From Shigella phage vB_SdyM_006, in sequence record MK295204: a stretch of 64,000 nt of DNA; one strand, 5' to 3'. Both the position numbers and the translations under genes were made by a program. Positions 21,665 through 60,639 of the stretch are shown here, piece by piece (the stretch's first letter is position 1; each line of letters begins with the position of its first letter). Under the pieces are notes generated by a model that saw nothing but the letters and a program-made list of their open reading frames with translations, made no database searches and had not been told where the DNA came from.

Positions 21665-21873
21665 TATTTACCTACTATTTTGCCAGTTTCTGGTCCTTCA
21701 TACAAAGTGGACTTTACTATAAAGTCACTTAACCCTTTATTATATCTTTTAAACTTTGACACTTCAGAATCACATATTAATTGAGCTAGATTCTCTTGAT
21801 ACATCATTAAGCAGGGAATAACCCTGCTTAAAAAGGTTTTCTTTGTATTAATTTTCTGGATATCTTGATTCAT
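21664..21873 (-). CDS. hypothetical protein
   Basis: Track start is GTG at 21882; first ATG at 21873; overlaps 3' end of next ORF. Confidence 0.25.
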   Translation of the reverse strand: MNQDIQKINTKKTFLSRVIPCLMMYQENLAQLICDSEVSKFKRYNKGLSDFIVKSTLYEGPETGKIVGK

Positions 21874-23014
21874 CGTCAGCACCGTCTAAAACTTTAATTT
21901 CAATTTCGTCTGGACGACGATCATTTTTAGATAATTGACGTTTATAATATCGTTCACAATATTTACAAGTCGTTCCGCAGATTTCGTTAGCACAATCAAA
22001 ATCAGGGTGTTTAAACCATCGTTTCTCTAAAAATCCATCTAACAATGATGTTTCTAAATACACCTGGTGTTCATGATCTAATTCTGATTTACCATTATAA
22101 ATTGTTTCTAATGGTTTCCAAAGTTCAAGTAAATTACCTGTGAATTGTTCTGATGCATAGGCTTCTAGAACTTTAACAATATATTCTGTTGTGCCTGTAC
22201 GTCCAGAAACTTTAAATTGAGAAATACCAATAGAACGATATAACTCTAAATCTTGTGGACGAACAAATCGAGTTCTAAGCCAGTTAAACGGGTCTGTATC
22301 ACGGGCTTTAATACAATGTTGCATTGGATATCCACCTAAAGATTGAGCATCTTCAGCTGTTATATCTGTAGAATGGAAAATATAACAAGAATCTCTGTAA
22401 GAACAGTGTGTTGTATATCCTTTACCAGCATTAGAACAAAATTCATTAACTAAGACTTCAAAAATAATATTATTTTTATTACAGAACTCAGCTGCACGTT
22501 TTAAGAACGAAACACTTCGGTTTTTATGAATACCACAACAAACTTTTTTAATATTATATTGGTCATGAAGATATTTTATTTGTGTGACAGCATCAACGTG
22601 TAGAATAGTCGAAACTTCAAATTGAATATGTTTATTTACTTCACGGATGATTTCCATAATAATTGGATTGGCAACAGTCACACGATAAACGCCAATACTC
22701 CATAAATATTGAACATAATCTTGGATGGCTTTCTTTTTCCAATCCTGTAGTTCACGTTTAGAGCCAGGGTTAATCGTGTTCAAAGTATAGTTGAAACATA
22801 TTCCTAAATCATTACAACGTTGTACGTATATTTCTAGTTGTTCGTCTTTGACATCCGGTAATCTAAAATCTGGTCGTGCTGCAGCAAAAGCCATTGCACG
22901 TGTACTTCCATAAACTTCATTAATAACACTATTAGGATATTTTTCGTTTAATTCAACGATTTTATCAAGTAAAGCCAAATCAAAATTTGTTCCTACTTTA
23001 AATGTATTTTTCAT
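21848..23014 (-). CDS. peptidase U32-family-like protein (RlhA/TrhP/UbiU-type, candidate Fe-S hydroxylase)
   Basis: Track start TTG 23032 lies in terminator hairpin; ATG at 23014 has AAGGA Shine-Dalgarno; GISQFKVSGRTGTTEY resembles U32 signature G[VI]xx[FL]K[IV]EGR; EFCSNAGKGYTTHCS Cys motif; C-terminal CxxxxCxxxCxxC. Confidence 0.45.
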   Translation of the reverse strand: MKNTFKVGTNFDLALLDKIVELNEKYPNSVINEVYGSTRAMAFAAARPDFRLPDVKDEQLEIYVQRCNDLGICFNYTLNTINPGSKRELQDWKKKAIQDYVQYLWSIGVYRVTVANPIIMEIIREVNKHIQFEVSTILHVDAVTQIKYLHDQYNIKKVCCGIHKNRSVSFLKRAAEFCNKNNIIFEVLVNEFCSNAGKGYTTHCSYRDSCYIFHSTDITAEDAQSLGGYPMQHCIKARDTDPFNWLRTRFVRPQDLELYRSIGISQFKVSGRTGTTEYIVKVLEAYASEQFTGNLLELWKPLETIYNGKSELDHEHQVYLETSLLDGFLEKRWFKHPDFDCANEICGTTCKYCERYYKRQLSKNDRRPDEIEIKVLDGADDESRYPEN

Positions 23015-23030
23015 TTTAGTCCTTATTACC

Positions 23031-23049
23031 AAAAAGGCCTTTCGGCCTT
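23031..23049 (-). terminator. intrinsic terminator hairpin (AAGGCC-GAAA-GGCCUU plus U-run)
   Basis: aaaaaggcctttcggcctt; near-identical copy at 47483-47502. Confidence 0.55.
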
Positions 23050-23052
23050 ATA

Positions 23053-23259
23053 TTATTTTTTCTTTAACTGTGTTGCTGCGTCTTCTAATTTAAGAGACAT
23101 ATCTTTAAAATTAACATCTTTGCCTTGAATACCAGAAACAATGCCAGAAACAAGAATCATAAATGCTAATAATACCGCAAACAATAATACAAAAACCGAA
23201 CACGCTACACCAATAAGAATACCTAATACAAGATTTTTAAAATAGTTTAATACTTTCAT
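23053..23259 (-). CDS. small membrane protein (imm-like by position)
   Basis: 68 aa, hydrophobic LVLGILIGVACSVFVLLFAVLLAFMILVSGIV; lies between genes 42 and 43 as imm in T4. Confidence 0.35.
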   Translation of the reverse strand: MKVLNYFKNLVLGILIGVACSVFVLLFAVLLAFMILVSGIVSGIQGKDVNFKDMSLKLEDAATQLKKK

Positions 23260-23819
23260 AATTGTCCTAATTTCGTGTTAATATAATTTGTTACATCTGC
23301 ATAAGAATAACCAGATAGAACATTATTATTTGAATCATGTTCTAATAACTTAAAATTTCTAATACCAAATTCTTCATAAAACATGTCATACACCGTAATG
23401 ATATCATTGAACTGTTCTTTTGATAACTTAATTAAGTCATCTTCAAAATCAGAATTAATTTTATTTCTAGTTAATCCGATAACCAAACATTTGTTTTTTA
23501 AATTAATAAGGTCCATAACATAATTATTAAATGTTTCTTGAGTCTCTTTAATAACAAATGATTTACCATGGTGTTTACGATAGATATAATAAACCATATT
23601 ACTTAAAAAGCAACGGTCTAATATATACTTTTTAGATGGGTCTAAATGATTTAGCATTGTATCAAAAATTGCTACTTCATTACGAGTAGCAATAGTAAAT
23701 AATCCATCTGAAGTTTTCTTAGGGAACTCTAATAAAGTAAATCCTTCATTATTGATTAAGTGTTGTATTAGAGTTGTTTTACCAGTATTATCAGGTCCTT
23801 CAATAGCAACAATATTCAT
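23256..23819 (-). CDS. P-loop kinase (thymidylate/nucleoside-kinase-like)
   Basis: 187 aa; MNIVAIEGPDNTGKTTL Walker A at N-terminus typical of small nucleotide/sugar kinases; ATGA coupling. Confidence 0.5.
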   Translation of the reverse strand: MNIVAIEGPDNTGKTTLIQHLINNEGFTLLEFPKKTSDGLFTIATRNEVAIFDTMLNHLDPSKKYILDRCFLSNMVYYIYRKHHGKSFVIKETQETFNNYVMDLINLKNKCLVIGLTRNKINSDFEDDLIKLSKEQFNDIITVYDMFYEEFGIRNFKLLEHDSNNNVLSGYSYADVTNYINTKLGQL

Positions 23820-24193
23820 TTTATCTCCGGAGTATATGGTTTGGCCGATTCTAAAGTAGACATTCTAACATGGTTTTTAAATGTTTGTGGGTCCATTGCT
23901 TTGTCATCGATAATCCAGTCATAAGATGGTTTATGGGTCAAAAGCTCATGATATTTCAATCCAATTTTATTAAGATTAATAACGAGTCCAGGAACTATTT
24001 CTGATGCTATTTTACCAGGTCCAACAGAAGTCATACCACGAGAAGTATAAAGTGTGATATGATGGCCCTGGTCGTACAGGGCGTTAATCATAGCTACCAT
24101 TTCTTCATCAGGTACAAAGTTCTCATAATCTCTATTATTATTCCATAATGTGATTGTATTATCAATGTCAAAAAACAGTTTTAAAGGTTTCAT
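23816..24193 (-). CDS. HAD-superfamily phosphatase
   Basis: 125 aa; LFFDIDNTIT = HAD motif I DxDxT; ATGA coupling with flanking genes. Confidence 0.55.
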   Translation of the reverse strand: MKPLKLFFDIDNTITLWNNNRDYENFVPDEEMVAMINALYDQGHHITLYTSRGMTSVGPGKIASEIVPGLVINLNKIGLKYHELLTHKPSYDWIIDDKAMDPQTFKNHVRMSTLESAKPYTPEIK

Positions 24194-25839
24194 TTAATTA
24201 AAATCCATTGTTTATGCAATTCTGATTGAATATGATTCATCATATAAACTTGTCCGGTTTCTCTATCATGGAGTTCCCATTTAGAAGGACATTTAGTAAT
24301 AATAGAGGCTGTCACGGGTTCTTTTGTTTCAGGAACTATTGCTCCATCTGTAAGGACACGTGGAAGCCCTTTAACAAATGAAGTTAATAAGTACATTCCA
24401 TAAAAATATGCAGATACCGCTTTTAATGGATTATTTTTAAAATATCCACCTAATGCTATCCAGATAATTCCTAGCCATAATTTATGTTTTGGCGTAACAA
24501 AATCTTGGTCTAAATAATCTGTCATTAAAGGTTTAATATCAACTATTGCTGAATCTCCTTCAATAGATAGACCACCCCATAATGGGTCTGCATTAAACTC
24601 GTCATATCCACTTAAAGCATAGAGAATTTTAGCTTCGTCATAAGTTCGTGGACCATAAAGTTCAGTGTGTCCAAAATATCCTCGTGGGTCAATAAATTTT
24701 ATTTCATTATCATCACTAAGCATAATATTACTAAAATTTAAGTCACCATGAATTAATTGATATTCTGTTTCTTTTAAATGAGGTAAAACTCTTTTTAAAA
24801 GACGGTTCAATGAGCCAATTTTAACCCCGTTAACATATTTGATTCCAAAAGAATCAATCATGTCTTGAATAGATGCACACCGGTCAATAACTTTTGTATA
24901 AGCTTCTTGTTTAATGTCGGCATCAATCTGATTCTTTTCAGGAATATATCTATCCCCAAATACACTTTCTTTGAGAATTTTTGGCAATAATTCTGGTGTA
25001 AACTTTTCATACATAGAAGAACCGTAGATTCTTTCCATTGTCATGATATTACATGTTTCTGTAGGTGTCATATAAATCATAGGAACATTACGGACACCTT
25101 TTAAATTAAGATACCAATTAAGTTCCTTTTTCTGAAGTTCTTCACCTTTAGGGTTTAAAGCTTTTTTAATAACATAACCATCTTTTAATGTAATTTCATT
25201 AAACTCTCGATTTAATTCTTTACTATCATGGGCTTGCCTTAATTTAGGAATATCGCCAATATCAATTAAATCAAATAAACTTTCTTCTTGAAAATCTGAA
25301 GCTTTTAAAAACTCTACAAAATCATGCCCTTTAGTTATATAATCAGGAATAGGTTCTAAAAAATCAAAATTTGTTTGATAGATACCAACGATGTTTCCAC
25401 CTGTAGCACCAACGTTATCGATTTTTCCATCTTTAAAACTATATCGACATTTATCCCCGTAAGTATAAATTTTATTTTTACCCCATTCGAATTCACGTCG
25501 TCCGTAAAATTTAGGAATAACATCACACCAATTGTAAATGACATTATGTCCATCAACATCAGAATGGATTTTATTAATTGCATACATAGAACCGTATGCT
25601 TCATCAACACATCTAACAGTTATAGTTAAGCCCATAGTTTTTGCATAACCTTGAACAAGGTCTTTAAATTTACTATGGACTACAACAATAATTTCTTCTG
25701 CCCCAACATTAGTATACAAATCATATAAATGTTTTAAAACAGTATGTTGTTTATAATTGACTAAGACTTTTGGAATATGTGATGTAATAGGATAAAGTCT
25801 GGTCGCAAGACCAGAACCAAGAATAACAACTTTCTTCAT
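24190..25839 (-). CDS. bifunctional sugar-1-phosphate nucleotidyltransferase / APH-choline-kinase-like kinase
   Basis: 549 aa; N-terminal VVILGSGLATRLYP (G-x-G-T-R-L NTP-transferase motif); C-terminal LIHGDLNFSNIML...IDPRG (Brenner kinase motif). Confidence 0.6.
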   Translation of the reverse strand: MKKVVILGSGLATRLYPITSHIPKVLVNYKQHTVLKHLYDLYTNVGAEEIIVVVHSKFKDLVQGYAKTMGLTITVRCVDEAYGSMYAINKIHSDVDGHNVIYNWCDVIPKFYGRREFEWGKNKIYTYGDKCRYSFKDGKIDNVGATGGNIVGIYQTNFDFLEPIPDYITKGHDFVEFLKASDFQEESLFDLIDIGDIPKLRQAHDSKELNREFNEITLKDGYVIKKALNPKGEELQKKELNWYLNLKGVRNVPMIYMTPTETCNIMTMERIYGSSMYEKFTPELLPKILKESVFGDRYIPEKNQIDADIKQEAYTKVIDRCASIQDMIDSFGIKYVNGVKIGSLNRLLKRVLPHLKETEYQLIHGDLNFSNIMLSDDNEIKFIDPRGYFGHTELYGPRTYDEAKILYALSGYDEFNADPLWGGLSIEGDSAIVDIKPLMTDYLDQDFVTPKHKLWLGIIWIALGGYFKNNPLKAVSAYFYGMYLLTSFVKGLPRVLTDGAIVPETKEPVTASIITKCPSKWELHDRETGQVYMMNHIQSELHKQWILIK

Positions 25840-25886
25840 TTCAAATCCTTATTAATTTAGTGTATAAGAATAGTATCATTAAATTC

Positions 25887-26519
25887 TTATAAGCTCTCAC
25901 TTTTAAGGGCTTTACCTAATGACCCACCAGGATGAAATGTTAAAAAGTCTTGACGTGTAAATCCACGTTCTGCAGATAGATTAATAGCAAAGGTGTCAAT
26001 TAGTGCTAAAAGAACTGTTGTGCTTGTAGTTGGAGCGAGATTGTTCTCATCTGATTCTACAACGTTACCAGTACAAAAATCATAGTCAAAAATAGAACGT
26101 GTACCTTGGTATAGGTCTTCATTACAATGTAACAAGATTTGTTTAACATTTGGTCTAATCTGACGTAGATGTTGAGCAGCATATAAAAGTTCTTGTGTTT
26201 TACCAGAACGAGAAATATGAATAATAACATCATTAGGACCAATAAAACCTGCATCGCCGTGAGAATAATGAGCTGTATTTAAATACATACTTGGAATTCC
26301 AAGTGAAGCAAATGTTTCTGAAGCCTTAGTGGCGATATTAGCATTTTTACCAATGCCTGTTATGATTACTCGACTTTCATAGTTAGATAAACCAGGCGCT
26401 CTTAGAACGTCTAATATTTGATTATACTTATCGGCATCCATTGTAATAGTAAGTCCAAGCGCATGTAAAGTTTTAGCTTGAATCATAATAGAACTACAAG
26501 CTCTTTTAATTGGATTCAT
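25887..26519 (-). CDS. SIS-domain sugar-phosphate isomerase (KdsD/GutQ-like arabinose-5-phosphate isomerase)
   Basis: 210 aa; VIITGIGKNANIATK...HISRSGKTQEL...APTTSTTVLLALIDTFA...HPGGSLGKAL aligns with KdsD SIS domain. Confidence 0.65.
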   Translation of the reverse strand: MNPIKRACSSIMIQAKTLHALGLTITMDADKYNQILDVLRAPGLSNYESRVIITGIGKNANIATKASETFASLGIPSMYLNTAHYSHGDAGFIGPNDVIIHISRSGKTQELLYAAQHLRQIRPNVKQILLHCNEDLYQGTRSIFDYDFCTGNVVESDENNLAPTTSTTVLLALIDTFAINLSAERGFTRQDFLTFHPGGSLGKALKSESL

Positions 26520-26969
26520 TTATTTTTTCTCGCAAAGTTTCTTTAATGTAGGAATGTCATACTTAACAACCTGAGAATAATCACCAGTTGTCATTGCATT
26601 TTGTTGCATAACACGGTATGTGATAACAGCTCGTTGATAACAATTGAGCTCAACTTTTTTAGGTTGTTCCATTGGAGGAAGATTTCTATCTTTAGCTAAT
26701 TGAGCGTCAACTCGTGCTGAAGCTTCTGCGATTTCAGCACGAACACGTAATCTGTCTGCTTCTCTTTTGGCATCAAGTTGACGTTCTAATTCAGCTCTAG
26801 ATTGATATTGTGGATTTTTATTAAAATAAGCGATTCCATTAGATGTTGATGCTAACTGCCCAGATTGTTGCATTCTAGCTTCACGTTTAGCTTTATAAGC
26901 TTCGTATTCAGCTTGGCTCATACATCCAGTCATAGTTAAACAAATAAGGCCGATTAAAATGTGTTTCAT
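26520..26969 (-). CDS. predicted lipoprotein
   Basis: Track start TTG; ATG at 26969 with GAGGAG Shine-Dalgarno; MKHILIGLICLTMTGC signal plus lipobox; Ala/Arg/Gln-rich mature part. Confidence 0.45.
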   Translation of the reverse strand: MKHILIGLICLTMTGCMSQAEYEAYKAKREARMQQSGQLASTSNGIAYFNKNPQYQSRAELERQLDAKREADRLRVRAEIAEASARVDAQLAKDRNLPPMEQPKKVELNCYQRAVITYRVMQQNAMTTGDYSQVVKYDIPTLKKLCEKK

Positions 26970-27024
26970 AATATGTCTCCTCAATAAATTTAATCGGAAC
27001 TATATCACTTATTTTGTGTCAGCA

Positions 27025-29736
27025 TTAAAAATCAAACAAATCAGCTAAAGAAGATTTTTTCTCATAATCGATTTTAGCGGCTGATGTAAATGATGTTAAA
27101 GGTTTAACAAAAGTTTTATTAAACAATTCTTGATAGTCAAGATTCCGTTTAACAAATTCTTCAATTTCTTGTGGTAAATCAGATCCAGATGGCCAAGAAA
27201 TACATTTTTCATTGAACGGATTGCCTTCTTTTAATGGAAGAACTTTAACTTTCTCACCTTCAAAAATAGGAGGAGCACCATCAACATGTTTTGTTGCTCG
27301 ATTATATGCTAATACACCTTTAACATGATAAGGACATCCTTTAGTAGGAAATCCTTCTGCATCAGAATACTTCATAAGATTATTAGCACTTGATACAGAA
27401 GCTATTGAGCTATAATCGTTTTCTCTGAATTGTTTTTCAAATTCTTTATAATATTCTTGTAATGATTCTTCACCTTCTTGAAGCATTCTTCGAATACATT
27501 CTTTTAACGCAACTTGACAACTTTTTGGTGTACTAGATTTTTGTGTTTCTAGACCCATGATTTTTAATTCTGGTGTTTCGTATCTGGTACCTTCCATATC
27601 CCAGACATTTAATGCATATCGTTTCTTAGCAGTCCAGAATCCACCAAGACCTTTTGTTCCTAGAGGAGGACCAGCAATGGCTTCTCGGTCCATGAACATC
27701 AAATGTTCTCTGTTGTTCATGTATTCTTTTAATTCACGATACGCTGTATCAATTGCAGGTTCCATTTTCTTAGAAGCAAATTCTGATAAGAAATCTACTA
27801 ATTTTTGTGTATCATTATTAAATTTGTGTTCAATTTTATCAACTAAATTATCAACACACACATAAACAGAATCCGTGTCACCTGCAATGACATAAGAATG
27901 ATTTTCTGTTCCAAGTGTTGCATTTAAATATTCGTTAATTTTACGTTCAATCCATTGGATTGCTAGTTGTCCAAATAATGTAATAGCTGATGCATTTCGT
28001 AAATCATAGTAACGGAAGTAAATATTACCTAAAGCGCCATAACAAGAGTTAATCAATAATTTTCTGTTAATTTGGGCTGTATTAGATGTTACAATAACCC
28101 ACTCGCAGTATTCTAATAATTTCTCTAAAGATTCTTTAGAAGCAGTATTTAATAAAGCTTTAAAGTCTTCATTAAAATCAAATCTGCCGTCAACTTCTGG
28201 TAATGTTAAGTTACCAAATTGATCTTTATGAATTGCAGCTTTTACTAATTCTGCATTACGTTTAGCTGCTAACATATATCCTTTATGTTCTTTACGCTGT
28301 AAGAATACTTTTTCTACTTCTTCAGGAATAACGCCTTTATATGTTTTATCATACATCCAACCATTAGGAGAACATGAATAAACATCACTTGGTCTTGGAG
28401 CAGTTTTATTAATATAATCCGACATTGGCGAAACAGGGAAGCTTCCTACTAATGTTTCTGGACTAATATTACCTTGTCTAATGATACTTGGGTACAGACT
28501 TGTAAGGTCAAAACTTAAGACCCAACGATACGCATTAGGAATAGGTTCTTTAACATAAGCACCTGGATAACTCTGTCTGATATGTTGTTTTAATTCAGGA
28601 ATAACTTTCTTTTTATCTTTAAGTGAGTTAAAGATAATTGCATCCCAAGTTTTAATAGGACTAAACACTGATTGAATTTGCATTTTAGAATAATATCCAA
28701 GAGATAATGCAAGTTCAATAAACTGACGTTTCTTATCAATTGCCTGTACACGATTAACGTCTTCGATGTTATAACTAATATATCGGTTATGATTTAACAT
28801 CCTTAATTTATTAATCGCCCCGTCATATTTTAATTTACCTTTACCAGTTTCGTATTCAGCAATAAAATCTAAATTATAAGCTGGCTGATTAGTAAAACTA
28901 AATTTCTTATATAAGTCTAAATAATCAAGAATAGAAACACCCATGATATCAAAAATTTGTTTATCACCATAAATGTTTTGAATTACTTTAGAACGTATTT
29001 TACGACATGGAGACATTCTCTTTGCAACTCGTTCACCTAAAACATTAGTGATTCTATTAATGATATAAGGAATATCAAAACCTTCTACGTTCCAACCAGT
29101 AAAAATAACAGGAGGTTTTTCTTCCCATAATCGAACATATTCTAATAATAATTCTTCTTCTGTTTCGAAAGGAAGATAAACAACTTTATCAATAATTTCT
29201 TGAGATAATTCGTCACCACCTTGATTTTCTGGTAACGCAGCTAATTTAGAGTCCCATTTAGAGACACTGCCAAAAGCAGAATTTAATAAGTCAAATACAT
29301 AAAACTTATCATCAATCGAATCGTAATGGGTGATTGCATCTATTTCGTATAGAGCTAGTTCTGGTTTAGGAAAATCAGTACCAGTAACTTCGATATCACA
29401 GTTTGCAATACGAATGTATTTTCGATTATACATAACATCGTAAGCATAATTATCGCTGATGTACGCTAATTTAAAATCATCCATACCCATGACTTCTTGG
29501 CCTACATCTTTCATTCGTTTAGACCAATCACGTGCATCTTGGATAGTCTTAAATTTTTTACGTGTACAATACTTTCCATAGATATCTTTATATTTTGTTT
29601 CAGTTCCTTCTACTGTGTGCCAAAACAATGATGGTTCATATTGTACCGTTCGACGTCGTTCTTTACCATCTGAATCGATATATCGTTCAAAAATGTTATT
29701 ACCAATTTGTTCTACATTTAAATAAAATGGTTTCAT
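27025..29736 (-). CDS. 43: DNA polymerase gp43 (family B)
   Basis: 903 aa; MKPFYLNVEQIGNNIFERYID..., exo and pol motifs (FDIE, YGDTDS-like GDTDSVYV, SLYPSII) collinear with remembered T4 gp43. Confidence 0.9.
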   Translation of the reverse strand: MKPFYLNVEQIGNNIFERYIDSDGKERRRTVQYEPSLFWHTVEGTETKYKDIYGKYCTRKKFKTIQDARDWSKRMKDVGQEVMGMDDFKLAYISDNYAYDVMYNRKYIRIANCDIEVTGTDFPKPELALYEIDAITHYDSIDDKFYVFDLLNSAFGSVSKWDSKLAALPENQGGDELSQEIIDKVVYLPFETEEELLLEYVRLWEEKPPVIFTGWNVEGFDIPYIINRITNVLGERVAKRMSPCRKIRSKVIQNIYGDKQIFDIMGVSILDYLDLYKKFSFTNQPAYNLDFIAEYETGKGKLKYDGAINKLRMLNHNRYISYNIEDVNRVQAIDKKRQFIELALSLGYYSKMQIQSVFSPIKTWDAIIFNSLKDKKKVIPELKQHIRQSYPGAYVKEPIPNAYRWVLSFDLTSLYPSIIRQGNISPETLVGSFPVSPMSDYINKTAPRPSDVYSCSPNGWMYDKTYKGVIPEEVEKVFLQRKEHKGYMLAAKRNAELVKAAIHKDQFGNLTLPEVDGRFDFNEDFKALLNTASKESLEKLLEYCEWVIVTSNTAQINRKLLINSCYGALGNIYFRYYDLRNASAITLFGQLAIQWIERKINEYLNATLGTENHSYVIAGDTDSVYVCVDNLVDKIEHKFNNDTQKLVDFLSEFASKKMEPAIDTAYRELKEYMNNREHLMFMDREAIAGPPLGTKGLGGFWTAKKRYALNVWDMEGTRYETPELKIMGLETQKSSTPKSCQVALKECIRRMLQEGEESLQEYYKEFEKQFRENDYSSIASVSSANNLMKYSDAEGFPTKGCPYHVKGVLAYNRATKHVDGAPPIFEGEKVKVLPLKEGNPFNEKCISWPSGSDLPQEIEEFVKRNLDYQELFNKTFVKPLTSFTSAAKIDYEKKSSLADLFDF

Positions 29737-47505: not shown

Positions 47506-48228
47506 TTATTTAAATTCGATAAAGTTACAATGTTTGCCTTTAAAAGATTCATGGATTTCTTCAGTTAAAGATTTCTCACGTAATTCAATATCTTTTTTGA
47601 TATTAGTATGTTCTAAACGAGCTTTAAGTTTTCTTTGTGCAATCTTTTTAGGGATATAATCACAGAATAGCCAAACACCGCCAACAATAATGACAAACAC
47701 AAGACAACATACAACTGCAAATAGAATAGCACCTAGAATATAAGCACCGATTGTTAATCCAGTTCCAAGAGTAATACCATAATAAGTAAGAATATTAATT
47801 AATGCTGTTCCACCTAAAGAACCAAAAGCACCACATAAAGCAGCAATAAGGAATGTAAAGAACAAACTTCGACCTAATAAATTCCAGAAATACCCACAGA
47901 TGCTTTTTGGCATACTAGCTTTAGGTGTAATTAATTTAGTTAATTTATAGTGCCAAGTATCTTTTTTAATTTCAATTTTCGGTGCAACAGAAGATAATCT
48001 GATGTCAACAATATCATTACCCCAGATATGATACTCATTATCAATAACTTTAAAATCTGTATTAACAATATAGCCATTTGAAAATACAAAGATATCGTGT
48101 TTATTAGATTTAGCGAGTTCAATTAAATTATTTGCAATTATAGATGCTTCTTCTTTAGTGGCCCATTCAGAATTAATACGGTGCCATTTAGGAGTTTCGG
48201 TATTAATTAAAAGTTCAATAGTATACAT
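47506..48228 (-). CDS. hypothetical membrane protein
   Basis: 240 aa; central Gly/Ala-rich transmembrane block (FFTFLIAALCGAFGSLGG...VFVIIVGGVWL). Confidence 0.35.
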   Translation of the reverse strand: MYTIELLINTETPKWHRINSEWATKEEASIIANNLIELAKSNKHDIFVFSNGYIVNTDFKVIDNEYHIWGNDIVDIRLSSVAPKIEIKKDTWHYKLTKLITPKASMPKSICGYFWNLLGRSLFFTFLIAALCGAFGSLGGTALINILTYYGITLGTGLTIGAYILGAILFAVVCCLVFVIIVGGVWLFCDYIPKKIAQRKLKARLEHTNIKKDIELREKSLTEEIHESFKGKHCNFIEFK

Positions 48229-48446
48229 TATATTTCCTTAAAAGAGTTTAGTAAAGCTTTAAATCTACGAAGTTCATCAATATCTGCACCAGAAGTTATA
48301 ACACCACTAAATTCAAAAGCATAGTCAAATTCGTCTTTATATTTGTGTTGAATTAAAACTGTTTGACGACGATTTAACGGTCCATAATTAATAATGCGTT
48401 TTGTTCTAACAGGAACACCTTCGGTAATTTCAGTTTTTATTTCCAT
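48228..48446 (-). CDS. hypothetical protein
   Basis: 72 aa, ATG start. Confidence 0.3.
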   Translation of the reverse strand: MEIKTEITEGVPVRTKRIINYGPLNRRQTVLIQHKYKDEFDYAFEFSGVITSGADIDELRRFKALLNSFKEI

Positions 48447-48708
48447 CTCGGTTCTCTAGCTCTGTCTCTGGTAAACAAGAAATGCCAGAAGAAGCGTTTT
48501 GATATGAGGCCATGACCCAACATGTCACTTTATACTCAGAATCTTTAATTTTAAAAATAGTTGGCTCATACTCAAACTTGTACCAGCCGGATTTAGATTT
48601 AAGGCTGATTGATGTTGTCTTTACATCTAAGACATCTAATGTTTTTTGTTTATCTTCGGCATAAGCACTAACAGATAAAGCAACTAACAAAGCAATTAAG
48701 TACTTCAT
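48430..48708 (-). CDS. hypothetical secreted protein
   Basis: 92 aa; MKYLIALLVALSVSAYA signal peptide. Confidence 0.35.
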   Translation of the reverse strand: MKYLIALLVALSVSAYAEDKQKTLDVLDVKTTSISLKSKSGWYKFEYEPTIFKIKDSEYKVTCWVMASYQNASSGISCLPETELENRDGNKN

Positions 48709-48915
48709 TTAAAGCCCTTTATTCTTAATAAAATGAGTATTCCATGTATTTGAATTGAATGCCCAGATTAAAATAGCAAGCCATCCAAAAACAGTCCATC
48801 CAAAAACAAAGTTAGCAATAAAAATAGAAGTCTTTGCACAATGATCTCTGTACCATGCCACAAAGAATGGTAAAAAATAAACAACAACTAAAGCTATCAG
48901 AGTTAAAAGTTCCAT
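48709..48915 (-). CDS. hypothetical membrane protein
   Basis: 68 aa, hydrophobic. Confidence 0.3.
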   Translation of the reverse strand: MELLTLIALVVVYFLPFFVAWYRDHCAKTSIFIANFVFGWTVFGWLAILIWAFNSNTWNTHFIKNKGL

Positions 48916-54522: not shown

Positions 54523-55083
54523 TTACTCCATTGTGTTTCCTACAATAGAATTAGATTTAAGATATTCTGCAATTGTTCGAACTTCATAAGAATATGTTTG
54601 TCCAGGTTTATATTTCCAATTATAGCCGGCATTGTAGCTTGCCAAAGCTTTATTGATATCTCCTTTATGGACTTTTAACCAACTTTTAAGTTCTACATGG
54701 CTCCAATATGCAGAATTTCCTCTATCTAATAGTTCTTTAATTATATCAGAATCTGGCTTAGGAGTTCCGGCTAATTTAAGACGGTTCCTAACAGTTTTAA
54801 TATAATTTTGGAACATACCATAAGCATGGTGGTTTTTCCGGTAAACTACCAAATTTGGGTTCTCGTACCCAGAACTTTCTTTAAATGCTATAGCAGCAAA
54901 TATATACCCAAGATGCTCTTCATCTTTTTCAAAGTCTCTTGGTTCTCCGTTTTTGTTAAATTGTTGTCCAAAATGGTATGCATAATTTAGATTATCATAT
55001 TGTTCGTATGATAAATTATTAGGCAAATAAACTGCACTACAAGAAACCGAGACAAATAATAAAGCGATTAATAAATATTTCAA
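54523..55083 (-). CDS. secreted lytic transglycosylase (SLT domain)-like protein
   Basis: 186 aa; signal peptide; AIAFKESSG (catalytic E-S), AYGMFQ, SYNAGYN SLT-like motifs; apparent TTG start overlapping regB stop. Confidence 0.5.
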   Translation of the reverse strand: MKYLLIALLFVSVSCSAVYLPNNLSYEQYDNLNYAYHFGQQFNKNGEPRDFEKDEEHLGYIFAAIAFKESSGYENPNLVVYRKNHHAYGMFQNYIKTVRNRLKLAGTPKPDSDIIKELLDRGNSAYWSHVELKSWLKVHKGDINKALASYNAGYNWKYKPGQTYSYEVRTIAEYLKSNSIVGNTME

Positions 55084-60163: not shown

Positions 60164-60639
60164 TTTGTGTCTCCTTTAATTTCATCAAGAAAGTCAAAAT
60201 AAGCGTTAGGATAAAACAATAGAATAAATGGTGTCATTGCTAGCCCAATAGAATACAATATCATACTCAATAAATCTGTAGAATAATGTATAAAGAAAGG
60301 CCAAACTATTAAAATATACATCATTATCATAAAAATAGTGTTCATCATATAAATATTGGACAATTTATGCGGTACACTGTAATACCCGTTTTGGTATCTA
60401 TTGTTATTATTACTTAATGAAATTACAATATCACCTACCGTCTCTTTATCGAAACCTAAATTTATTGTTTCAAACATGACAAAGAGTCCTAAAACTATAC
60501 AACTTATTAAAAATAATAATGAATATGCAAACCCTGCTCCTGTGTTTGCCCACATATCAAATGAGAACAATGTATTTCCAGATAACACAAGTAAAAATAT
60601 AAAGACAACTTTGTTGATTTGAGATAATAAATAATTCAT
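60160..60639 (-). CDS. hypothetical polytopic membrane protein
   Basis: 159 aa; several hydrophobic segments. Confidence 0.35.
   Translation of the reverse strand: MNYLLSQINKVVFIFLLVLSGNTLFSFDMWANTGAGFAYSLLFLISCIVLGLFVMFETINLGFDKETVGDIVISLSNNNNRYQNGYYSVPHKLSNIYMMNTIFMIMMYILIVWPFFIHYSTDLLSMILYSIGLAMTPFILLFYPNAYFDFLDEIKGDTK

What the first reader, a model, noticed from the sequence alone, without database searches (positions are those of the whole stretch)
26520..26969. Lipoprotein encoded immediately downstream of DNA polymerase
Strong GAGGAG Shine-Dalgarno, signal peptide and lipobox (LTMTGC), and an Ala/Arg/Gln-rich mature region unlike neighbouring phage proteins. Phage lipoproteins at such positions often mediate superinfection exclusion or receptor masking.
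Basis: partly seen in the sequence, partly recalled or inferred. Interest (0 to 1): 0.3.

Follow-up and report, generated by a model that had tools for sequence, protein, structure and literature searches.

The report
Early phage lipoprotein beside DNA polymerase
This is a real, well-conserved gene of a T4-like Proteus phage for a small lipid-anchored protein of the bacterial envelope; its relatives in other T4-like phages sit next to the superinfection-immunity gene, so it probably helps an infected cell shut out other phages, but nobody has tested that.

Summary
A 149-aa ORF on the minus strand (26969 to 26520) lies 55 nt downstream of the T4-type DNA polymerase gene 43. It has a GAGGAG ribosome-binding site, a signal peptide and a lipobox (LTMTG|C). 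The mature part is rich in Ala, Gln and Arg.

The window is nearly identical to Proteus phage phiP4-3. The gene is under purifying selection (dN/dS 0.06-0.11). Clear homologues exist only in T4-like phages of Proteus, Providencia and Morganella, always directly after gene 43.

The predicted protein has a lipid anchor, a short conserved N-terminal motif and a variable helical stalk. It ends in a conserved roughly 40-residue helical domain bracketed by two invariant cysteines. No Pfam, PDB or fold match was found.

New here: lipoproteins of 143-150 aa occupy the same slot in Serratia, Enterobacter, Citrobacter and Salmonella T4-like phages. They are weakly but non-randomly similar to this family. 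In three of those lineages, and in T4 (imm.1), the lipoprotein gene directly precedes imm.

The phage has canonical spanins and its own imm elsewhere. The best reading is an early outer-membrane lipoprotein that acts in superinfection exclusion or envelope protection. Function is inferred, not shown. Interest is modest.

The parts
26520..26969 (-). Coding sequence of the 149-aa prolipoprotein, stop codon included
   Evidence: ORF list and sequence. 100% identical over 148 aa to phiP43_228 of Proteus phage phiP4-3. Belongs to phrog_20821, function unknown. dN/dS is 0.06-0.11 among Bragavirus copies.
26977..26982 (-). Shine-Dalgarno GAGGAG, 7 nt upstream of the ATG
   Evidence: Read directly from the sequence.
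26925..26969 (-). Signal peptide, residues 1-15: n-region MKH, then h-region ILIGLICLTMT with mean Kyte-Doolittle hydropathy 2.5
   Evidence: The predicted LspA cleavage between G15 and C16 is an inference.
26922..26933 (-). Lipobox M-T-G-C (residues 13-16). Cys16, codon 26924-26922, would be the lipidated first residue of the mature protein
   Evidence: The PS51257 rule is met. Gly15-Cys16 is invariant in all 9 family members. The +2 residue is Met, or Gln in relatives, and never Asp.
26820..26921 (-). Conserved N-terminal segment of the mature protein (residues 17-50). It includes the motif G-x-L-x(5)-G-x-A-Y-F
   Evidence: Invariant S18, Y22, L39 and G45. The motif aligns colinearly with G-x-G-x-V-Y-x-R of the Serratia, Enterobacter, Citrobacter and Salmonella lipoproteins. 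AF2 confidence here is low.
26685..26798 (-). Variable Ala/Arg/Glu-rich helical stalk (residues 58-95)
26523..26648 (-). Conserved C-terminal helical domain (residues 108-149). It is bracketed by invariant Cys110 (26642-26640) and Cys146 (26534-26532), carries the motif TGDYS, and ends in Lys
   Evidence: Most invariant columns of the alignment fall here. AF2 pLDDT is 91-95 with three helices. A disulfide between the two cysteines is inferred and was not measured.
27071..27099 (-). Sigma-70-like promoter match (TTAACA-17-TAAAAT, 10 of 12) inside the 3' end of gene 43. It is a weak candidate only
   Evidence: The region holds no more such sites than shuffled sequence (18 found against 23 expected), so this is not evidence of function. 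Co-transcription with gene 43 is equally possible.
27025..29736 (-). Gene 43 DNA polymerase, the conserved upstream neighbour that defines the slot
   Evidence: 903-aa ORF. Annotated as DNA polymerase in phiP4-3 and relatives.

Best explanation
**Expression and maturation.** The gene encodes a small outer-membrane lipoprotein made early in infection by a T4-like Proteus phage. It is transcribed with, or just after, the DNA polymerase gene. The precursor would be exported by Sec, lipidated on Cys16 by Lgt, cut by signal peptidase II and N-acylated. Because residue +2 is Met rather than Asp, the Lol system would carry it to the inner leaflet of the outer membrane.

**Shape.** The 134-residue mature protein then hangs into the periplasm. 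A roughly 38-residue helical stalk of variable sequence holds a conserved, probably disulfide-clamped, three-helix domain away from the membrane.

**Proposed function.** That domain is proposed to bind a target in the envelope: either the tip of an incoming phage tail or a host envelope component. The infected cell would thereby exclude superinfecting phages, or be protected against their envelope damage. This is the same functional area as the T4 proteins Imm and Spackle.

**Shown and inferred.** Shown: the gene is real, conserved and selected; it carries a lipoprotein signal; and its slot and its remote relatives are linked to imm. Inferred: lipidation, outer-membrane sorting, the disulfide, early timing and the exclusion function itself.
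For: **Real lipoprotein gene**
- The lipoprotein signal meets the PS51257 rule and is rare in the window.
- The lipobox is invariant across homologues of 37-49% identity.
- Purifying selection: dN/dS 0.06-0.11.

**Early expression**
- Only one TATAAATA late-promoter motif occurs in 64 kb, against 16.6 expected, and it is not near the gene.
- No terminator-like site lies between gene 43 and this gene.

**Conserved slot**
- The gene sits directly after gene 43 in all 13 phage records that carry it, whatever gene follows.
- T4 has a lipoprotein gene, imm.1, in the same slot, followed by imm.
- T4 imm.1 is classed as early RNA and early protein, like sp (PMC9697503 supplementary files 4 and 6).

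**Wider set of lipoproteins**
- In a survey of 80 gp43 loci, lipoproteins of 143-150 aa lie within the first four ORFs after gene 43. They occur in Serratia, Enterobacter, Citrobacter and Salmonella T4-like phages.
- A profile of the mature part of this family (signal peptide removed) hits the Serratia PS2 lipoprotein at E=9e-4 among 3759 ORFs. Seven of the next 8 hits are the Enterobacter and Citrobacter lipoproteins.
- 0 of 3000 composition-preserving shuffles reach the PS2 score. Only 5-11 of 3000 reach the scores for Merlin and PG7.
- Foldseek against viral models ranks 'Lipoprotein [Serratia phage Muldoon]' second.
- All three cysteines align colinearly across the groups.

**Link to imm**
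- imm lies -4 to +32 nt downstream of the lipoprotein in PS2, S16-type, Merlin/Moon and T4.
Against: - No member of this family, of the wider set or of T4 imm.1 has an assigned function, so the imm link is guilt by association only.
- In this phage imm is not adjacent. It lies at 48709-48915. The CC31/PG7 group also lacks an adjacent imm.
- From my own recollection of the older T4 literature, not checked here, cloned imm alone confers immunity. A lipoprotein partner is therefore not required in T4.
- The similarity between this family and the Enterobacter/Citrobacter/Salmonella group is marginal when compared directly (E 0.2-9).
- T4 imm.1 shows no similarity beyond the signal peptide.
- No fold or sequence match to any protein of known mechanism was found.
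- Lipidation, localisation and timing are all predicted, not measured.
Confidence: 0.4

Rival explanations
1. Receptor masking from the periplasmic side, as T5 Llp does to FhuA and Cor does to FhuA. The lipoprotein would bind the periplasmic face of the outer-membrane protein that the phage uses as receptor. This would inactivate the receptor, protecting the infected cell and stopping progeny from being wasted on debris.
For: It is predicted to be an outer-membrane lipoprotein with a periplasmic domain and paired cysteines, like Llp (recalled knowledge, not checked here). The family diverges fast and tracks host genus: polymerase C-termini are 62-80% identical while the lipoproteins are 37-49% identical or unrecognisable. 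That pattern fits a host-surface partner.
Against: No sequence or fold similarity to Llp or Cor families. The gene is next to the polymerase, not next to tail-fibre or adhesin genes, which lie elsewhere in phiP4-3 at 6.6-14.7 kb of that record. The association in relatives is with imm, which acts after adsorption.
Confidence: 0.15
2. Envelope stabiliser resembling Braun's lipoprotein. This would be a helical outer-membrane lipoprotein whose C-terminal lysine is linked, covalently or not, to peptidoglycan. It would add tethers between outer membrane and cell wall during infection, for example to delay envelope failure until lysis or to resist lysis from without.
For: Lipoprotein with a long predicted helix. 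The last residue is Lys in almost every member of this family and of the Serratia, Enterobacter, Citrobacter and Salmonella groups, and in most imm.1 homologues. The tail of 3-9 residues after the last Cys is short and basic. The window's own 1-nt poly-A variant still ends in Lys.
Confidence: 0.1
3. Periplasmic modulator of lysis timing or of a host envelope enzyme or defence. Examples are a helper of lysis inhibition, or an inhibitor of a host periplasmic hydrolase, protease or envelope-associated anti-phage system. It would be unrelated to exclusion of other phages.
For: The protein is exported and anchored in the periplasm. It is an early gene of a lytic phage sitting in a variable region of host-interaction genes. 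Nothing in the data specifies the target.
Against: No similarity to RI, RIII or known inhibitor families. No hit of any significance in the defence-system library. The only recurrent gene partner in relatives is imm.
Confidence: 0.2
4. The outer-membrane subunit (o-spanin) of the phage's spanin complex, needed for the last step of lysis.
For: Small phage lipoprotein with periplasmic cysteines.
Against: No adjacent or embedded inner-membrane spanin gene: the neighbours are the DNA polymerase and a sugar isomerase. Proline is not enriched (3.7%, 1.1 times background). phiP4-3 has a canonical pair, phiP43_043/044, next to alc. These are homologous to T4 pseT.3 and pseT.2 (E 1e-12 and 7e-26).
Confidence: 0.02

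Closest known systems
T4 Imm.1 (gene imm.1, Pfam DUF5481/PF17578)
   Same: Both occupy the same genomic slot, the first gene after DNA polymerase gene 43. Both are lipoproteins (T4: MKIAILVIALGLAGC). They are similar in size (125 against 149 aa), have cysteines near the C-terminus and a short basic tail. T4 imm.1 is an early gene. Neither has a known function.
   Different: No detectable similarity outside the signal peptide. Shuffle p is about 0.5, and the target gives no PF17578 hit. In T4 imm.1 is followed directly by imm; here imm is about 22 kb away. The relation is positional, and homology is unproven.
Unnamed lipoproteins downstream of gene 43 in other T4-like phages: Serratia PS2/Muldoon, Enterobacter CC31/PG7, Citrobacter Merlin/Moon and Salmonella S16
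   Same: Same slot, same length (146-150 aa) and a lipobox. They share a colinear N-terminal G-x-G-x-[VA]-Y motif, a helical middle, a C-terminal helical unit bracketed by two cysteines, and a terminal Lys. Sequence similarity is weak but non-random.
   Different: Identity is only 17-26%. The direct link to the Enterobacter/Citrobacter/Salmonella group is below usual thresholds. Most of these relatives are adjacent to imm, and this one is not. All are annotated as hypothetical.
T5 Llp and the Cor proteins of phi80, N15 and T1
   Same: These are phage-encoded outer-membrane lipoproteins that protect the infected or lysogenic cell from further infection (recalled knowledge). The target has the same predicted localisation and small size.
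   Different: No sequence or fold similarity. Llp is encoded next to the receptor-binding protein gene, whereas this gene is next to the polymerase. The target is about twice as long and has a helical stalk.
T4 Imm and Spackle (Sp)
   Same: Both are early T4 envelope proteins that block superinfection: Imm in the inner membrane and Sp in the periplasm. The proposed functional area is the same, and relatives of the target are genetically linked to imm.
   Different: The target is neither protein. The phage's own Imm homologue is at 48709-48915. There is no similarity to Sp (E 5.1). Sp is a soluble periplasmic protein, not a lipoprotein.
Braun's lipoprotein Lpp
   Same: Small helical outer-membrane lipoprotein ending in Lys.
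   Different: No sequence match. The target has a folded C-terminal domain with a probable disulfide rather than a continuous trimeric coiled coil. Attachment to peptidoglycan is untested.

Membership tests
Bacterial lipoprotein (PROSITE PS51257; substrate of Lgt, LspA and Lnt) | Positively charged n-region, uncharged hydrophobic h-region, and a lipobox ending in Cys at position 15-35 | tested here: met
   K2; ILIGLICLTMT with mean hydropathy 2.5; T-M-T-G-C with Cys16. Met at -3 is allowed by PROSITE but is not the canonical Leu.
Bacterial lipoprotein (PROSITE PS51257; substrate of Lgt, LspA and Lnt) | Lipobox conserved in homologues | tested here: met
   Gly-Cys is invariant. Relatives carry L-S-G-C or L-T-G-C.
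Bacterial lipoprotein (PROSITE PS51257; substrate of Lgt, LspA and Lnt) | Actual lipid modification and globomycin-sensitive processing | not testable with these tools
   Needs labelling and inhibitor experiments.
T4 Imm.1 / DUF5481 (PF17578) | Match to the Pfam model or to the T4 Imm.1 sequence | tested here: not met
   No PF17578 hit at E up to 0.1, whereas T4 Imm.1 scores 5e-72. hhalign aligns only the signal peptide. Profile scores are no better than shuffles.
T4 Imm.1 / DUF5481 (PF17578) | Lipoprotein gene directly downstream of gene 43 | tested here: met
T4 Imm.1 / DUF5481 (PF17578) | Directly upstream of imm | tested here: not met
   The next gene is a SIS-domain isomerase. imm is at 48709-48915.
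Lipoproteins downstream of gene 43 in Serratia, Enterobacter, Citrobacter and Salmonella T4-like phages (unnamed, defined here) | Slot after gene 43, 143-159 aa, lipobox, colinear N-terminal motif, and two cysteines bracketing a C-terminal helical unit | tested here: met
Lipoproteins downstream of gene 43 in Serratia, Enterobacter, Citrobacter and Salmonella T4-like phages (unnamed, defined here) | Statistically supported sequence similarity of the mature parts | tested here: inconclusive
   To Serratia PS2: E=9e-4 in 3759 ORFs, and 0 of 3000 shuffles reach the score. To the Enterobacter/Citrobacter/Salmonella group: E 0.2-1.3, although they rank directly after PS2, and 5-11 of 3000 shuffles reach the scores. 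The profiles are thin (Neff 1-2).
T5 Llp / Cor superinfection-exclusion lipoproteins | Sequence or fold similarity to Llp or Cor | tested here: not met
   No such hit in Pfam, PHROGs, BFVD or PDB.
T5 Llp / Cor superinfection-exclusion lipoproteins | Blocks the phage's own receptor | not testable with these tools
   Needs adsorption and binding assays.
Two-component spanin, outer-membrane subunit (Rz1 / T4 PseT.2) | Gene adjacent to, or embedded in, an inner-membrane spanin gene | tested here: not met
   The neighbours are gp43 and a SIS isomerase. The canonical pseT.3/pseT.2 homologues are elsewhere in phiP4-3.
T4 Spackle | Sequence similarity to Sp | tested here: not met
   phmmer E=5.1.
Braun's lipoprotein Lpp | Match to the Lpp family | tested here: not met
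   No Pfam hit.
Braun's lipoprotein Lpp | C-terminal Lys cross-linked to peptidoglycan | not testable with these tools
   A terminal Lys is present and widely conserved. Cross-linking needs biochemistry.

The most novel reading that the evidence does not exclude
T4-like phages of Enterobacterales carry a fast-evolving, host-genus-specific lipoprotein in the slot between gene 43 and imm. This would be a third, so far unrecognised, component of T-even superinfection immunity alongside Imm and Spackle, and T4 imm.1 would be its extreme divergent form. It would be an outer-membrane-anchored partner that works with the inner-membrane protein Imm. One possibility is a stalked, possibly peptidoglycan-tethered, periplasmic block to the incoming tail tip or DNA.
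Probability: 0.2. Interest if true: 0.6.

Novelty: new variant of a known kind. Interest (0 to 1): 0.35.

Why it matters
Superinfection exclusion in T-even phages is textbook material built on two proteins, Imm and Spackle. The mechanism of Imm is still unclear. A lipoprotein gene recurs in the same slot in several lineages and lies next to imm in T4, Serratia PS2, Salmonella S16-type and Citrobacter Merlin/Moon phages. That gives a concrete, cheap experiment: delete or express the lipoprotein, with and without imm. The experiment can be done in T4 itself (imm.1) as well as in Proteus phages.

For phage therapy against Proteus, Providencia and Morganella, such genes decide whether cocktail members exclude one another.

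If the gene turns out to have no exclusion role, it remains one more uncharacterised early envelope protein of narrow distribution.

Tried and rejected
**Family and structure searches**
- Pfam, NCBIfam, PADLOC and a PDB sequence-profile search gave nothing above noise. The best hits were Phage_Mu_Gp36 at E 0.033, a de novo TIM barrel at E 0.027 and Cas3f at E 0.002, all on low-complexity helix.
- The afdb50 library was not available.

**Protein database searches**
- The 5.8-billion-protein word search and the exhaustive search of 1.84 billion representatives found only phage members of the same small family, in 4 clusters. No bacterial or prophage homologues appeared.
- The profile search with the combined alignment added more Enterobacter-type members but no new bridging sequences.

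**Comparisons with T4 proteins**
- Direct homology to T4 imm.1 was rejected on present evidence.
- The short resemblances at the two ends (GPVV..VGKI, and YNSCVKNLTK against FNKCMAKNAK) are noted but not significant.
- The o-spanin reading was rejected.
- Spackle and Imm identity were rejected.

**Regulatory and RNA scans**
- No MotA-box middle promoter and no late promoter lie near the gene.
- The sigma-70-like site in the 3' end of gene 43 is no better than chance.
- Rfam found no RNA element in 25800-27400.

**Other checks**
- GC content of the gene (0.36) is only slightly above its neighbours (0.29-0.34), so there is no sign of recent foreign origin.
- Literature searches found no functional study of imm.1 or of these lipoproteins. 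One paper merely lists Imm.1 as a marker of the T4 group (PMC5885020).

Full report
**What is there**

The finding's coordinates delimit an ORF on the minus strand. The ATG is at 26969-26967, the TAA at 26522-26520, and the product is 149 aa. A GAGGAG Shine-Dalgarno sequence lies 7 nt upstream.

The upstream gene, separated by a 55-nt spacer, is a 903-aa T4-type DNA polymerase at 27025-29736. The downstream gene starts at the next base after the stop codon and encodes a SIS-domain sugar-phosphate isomerase. No ORF of 40 aa or more lies on the opposite strand, and Rfam finds no RNA family there.

The window is a close relative of Proteus phage phiP4-3 (Bragavirus, Straboviridae). Across this gene it differs by two synonymous changes. 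It also has one extra A in a poly-A run at the 3' end, which changes the C-terminus from CEKNK to CEKK.

**Is it a lipoprotein gene?**

The N-terminus MKHILIGLICLTMTG|CMSQ meets the PROSITE PS51257 rule. Of 926 start/ORF combinations of at least 40 aa in the window, only three loci meet it, and one of those is a plain membrane protein.

Residue -3 is Met, which is permitted but unusual. Homologues of 37-49% identity have canonical LSGC or LTGC, and Gly-Cys is invariant.

The mature part has no hydrophobic segment: the maximum 19-residue hydropathy is 0.16. It is basic (pI 9.4) and enriched 2.5-3 fold in Ala, Gln and Arg relative to the window's other proteins.

dN/dS among Bragavirus copies is 0.06-0.11.

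Residue +2 is Met, or Gln in relatives, and never Asp. By the E. coli Lol-avoidance rule (established knowledge, applied by inference to Proteus) this predicts outer-membrane sorting.

**Anatomy**

The family alignment and an AlphaFold2 model agree on four parts. The model has mean pLDDT 74, with 83-95 over residues 60-149.
- The lipid anchor.
- A conserved N-terminal stretch (S18, Y22, L39, G45; motif G-x-L-x5-G-x-A-Y-F), modelled with low confidence.
- A single long helix, residues 58-95, whose length and sequence vary between phages.
- A strongly conserved C-terminal unit of three short helices, residues 108-148. It is bracketed by invariant Cys110 and Cys146, carries an invariant TGDY motif and ends in Lys.

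A disulfide between the two cysteines is a reasonable inference for a periplasmic protein but was not measured.

**Distribution**

tblastn finds the protein in 13 phage records. All are T4-like phages of Proteus, Providencia or Morganella. The exhaustive search of 1.84 billion representative proteins finds only four clusters, all from such phages. The family is phrog_20821, function unknown.

In every genome examined the gene follows gene 43 directly, whatever comes next. That is a sugar-nucleotide cluster in Proteus and Providencia phages, and a small membrane protein plus a kinase-like gene in Morganella phage MP1.

**What it is not**

- It is not the phage's o-spanin. phiP4-3 has a canonical pair next to alc, homologous to T4 pseT.3 and pseT.2, and this gene has no inner-membrane partner gene.
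- It is not Imm. The phage's Imm homologue is at 48709-48915 (E 5e-10 to T4 Imm; phrog_1039).
- It is not Spackle.

**The slot**

In T4 the order is 43, imm.1, imm, 42. T4 imm.1 is itself a lipoprotein (MKIAILVIALGLAGC; DUF5481). A time-resolved omics study classes it as early RNA and early protein, the same class as sp (PMC9697503, supplementary files 4 and 6).

I then surveyed 80 loci that encode relatives of the gp43 C-terminus. Among the 33 enterobacterial-type loci, 18 have a rule-positive lipoprotein of at least 120 aa within about 1.5 kb downstream of gene 43. They fall into six groups:
- this family;
- Serratia PS2, Muldoon and Cronobacter VP8;
- Enterobacter CC31 and PG7;
- Salmonella S16-type;
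- Citrobacter Merlin and Moon;
- T4 imm.1.

The non-T4 groups are 143-150 aa long. They align colinearly with the target at the lipobox, at an N-terminal G-x-G-x-[VA]-Y motif and at both C-terminal cysteines.

An AF2 model of the CC31 protein shows a comparable plan. It has short N-terminal strands, a long helix, and a C-terminal helical hairpin that carries the two cysteines, with pLDDT above 90.

**Is the resemblance more than architecture?**

I built profiles from mature sequences only, so that signal peptides could not contribute. These were searched against 3759 ORFs from all fetched DNA.
- The target family's profile hits the PS2 lipoprotein first (E 9e-4).
- Seven of its next 8 hits are the Enterobacter and Citrobacter lipoproteins (E 0.2-1.3).
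- The profile of the Enterobacter, Citrobacter and Salmonella groups also hits PS2 first (E 0.002).

Composition-preserving shuffles give the following.

| Comparison | Shuffles reaching the real score |
|---|---|
| Target-family profile against PS2 | 0 of 3000 |
| Target-family profile against Merlin | 5 of 3000 |
| Target-family profile against PG7 | 11 of 3000 |
| Either profile against T4 imm.1 | about half (no signal) |

Foldseek against viral models independently ranks the Muldoon lipoprotein second (E 0.07).

I conclude three things. The target probably belongs to a wider, very divergent set of lipoproteins found downstream of gene 43. The link through the Serratia member is fairly good and the rest is marginal. 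T4 imm.1 is a positional counterpart whose homology is unproven.

**Link to imm**

In PS2 the lipoprotein gene overlaps imm by 4 nt. In the S16-type phages the gap is 28 nt, in Merlin/Moon 32 nt, and in the T4 group 7-11 nt.

Four lineages therefore keep a lipoprotein-imm pair, with two unrelated or unrecognisably related lipoprotein sequences. In three other loci imm follows gene 43 with no lipoprotein. In the CC31 group and in the target's group the lipoprotein stays in the slot but imm does not.

This is the main evidence, and it is indirect, that the protein acts in the same process as Imm.

**Timing**

The window has a single TATAAATA motif, against 16.6 expected from shuffles, and it is far from the gene. 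No MotA-box promoter match lies near the gene. No terminator-like site separates it from gene 43. A sigma-70-like site within the end of gene 43 is no better than chance. Early or middle expression together with gene 43 is inferred.

**Mechanism**

The best-supported account is an early outer-membrane lipoprotein whose stalk presents a conserved, disulfide-clamped domain in the periplasm. There it would bind an envelope or incoming-phage target and contribute to superinfection exclusion or envelope protection. I give this 0.4.

Rivals:
- Receptor masking in the manner of Llp or Cor (0.15).
- Another periplasmic role, such as control of lysis timing or inhibition of a host enzyme or defence (0.2).
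- An Lpp-like tether to peptidoglycan (0.1). This is suggested by the nearly universal C-terminal Lys, but it is weakened because 20% of the window's ORFs end in Lys and exceptions exist.
- o-spanin (0.02), rejected on present evidence.

**Novelty and score**

The gene is already deposited as a hypothetical protein, and phage lipoproteins that exclude other phages are a known kind. This family is unrelated in sequence and fold to the characterised examples. The recurrent lipoprotein slot next to imm in T4-like phages does not appear in the literature I could search.

I rate it a new variant of a known kind, interest 0.35. The strongest reading not excluded is an unrecognised third component of T-even superinfection immunity: probability 0.2, interest 0.6 if true.

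Noticed in passing
window 21848-26519 (-): Directly downstream of the lipoprotein gene lies a cluster of five genes. They encode a SIS/arabinose-5-phosphate isomerase (phrog_5670), a 549-aa nucleotidyltransferase-kinase fusion, a HAD-type phosphatase, a thymidylate-kinase-like protein and a U32-peptidase-like protein. The cluster resembles the sugar-activation genes proposed for arabinosylated cytosine in RB69-type phages (PMC6024577, PMC13326640). This suggests the Proteus phage hypermodifies its DNA with a pentose.
   Followed up: partly
window 48430-48915 (-): The phage's Imm homologue (68 aa, 48709-48915, phrog_1039) is followed without a gap by a 92-aa protein (48430-48708). That protein has a classical cleavable signal peptide (MKYLIALLVALSVSAYA|ED) and no known function (phrog_3224). 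Next comes a 240-aa membrane protein (47506-48228, phrog_944). Here Imm again has an exported neighbour, which may be a Spackle-like partner. No T4 Sp homologue was found in the window.
   Followed up: partly
window 1-64000: The T4 late-promoter motif TATAAATA occurs once (60348-60355, + strand), against 16.6 +/- 4.1 expected from shuffles. This strong avoidance fits an early/middle gene region transcribed on the minus strand.
   Followed up: no
window 26520-26530: Compared with phiP4-3 and all other family members, the window has one extra A in the poly-A run just before the stop (GAGAAAAAATAA against GAGAAAAATAAATGA). This shortens the C-terminus from CEKNK to CEKK. It also replaces the ATGA overlap with the next gene by TAA followed directly by ATG. 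It may be a real variant or a homopolymer sequencing error.
   Followed up: partly
window 54523-55083 (-): This is the window's second ORF that meets the lipoprotein rule: 186 aa, MKYLLIALLFVSVSC, TTG start, phrog_600, function unknown. It lies between a regB-like endoribonuclease gene and the vs (valyl-tRNA synthetase modifier) gene. It may be a secreted protein rather than a lipidated one.
   Followed up: no
window 23053-23259 (-); L003 6429-6641: A 68-aa membrane protein (phrog_27903) lies within the sugar cluster. In Morganella phage MP1 its homologue directly follows the lipoprotein gene. It is not similar to Imm (E 5.1). It may be a small membrane partner of unknown role.
   Followed up: no
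L002 1544-5950 (Providencia phage PSTCR6); L092 1-2093 (Serratia phage PS2): In these relatives the DNA polymerase gene is split into two ORFs. In PSTCR6 an opposite-strand 374-aa ORF and a 58-aa ORF lie between the halves. In PS2 the halves are annotated gp43A and gp43B. The lipoprotein gene still follows the second half.
   Followed up: no
L018 4010-4414 (Serratia phage PS2): PS2 carries an additional exported 134-aa protein (MKRKLQALTLALLVSVPTAFA...) between gene 43 and its lipoprotein. The region between gene 43 and imm seems to collect envelope-targeted genes.
   Followed up: no
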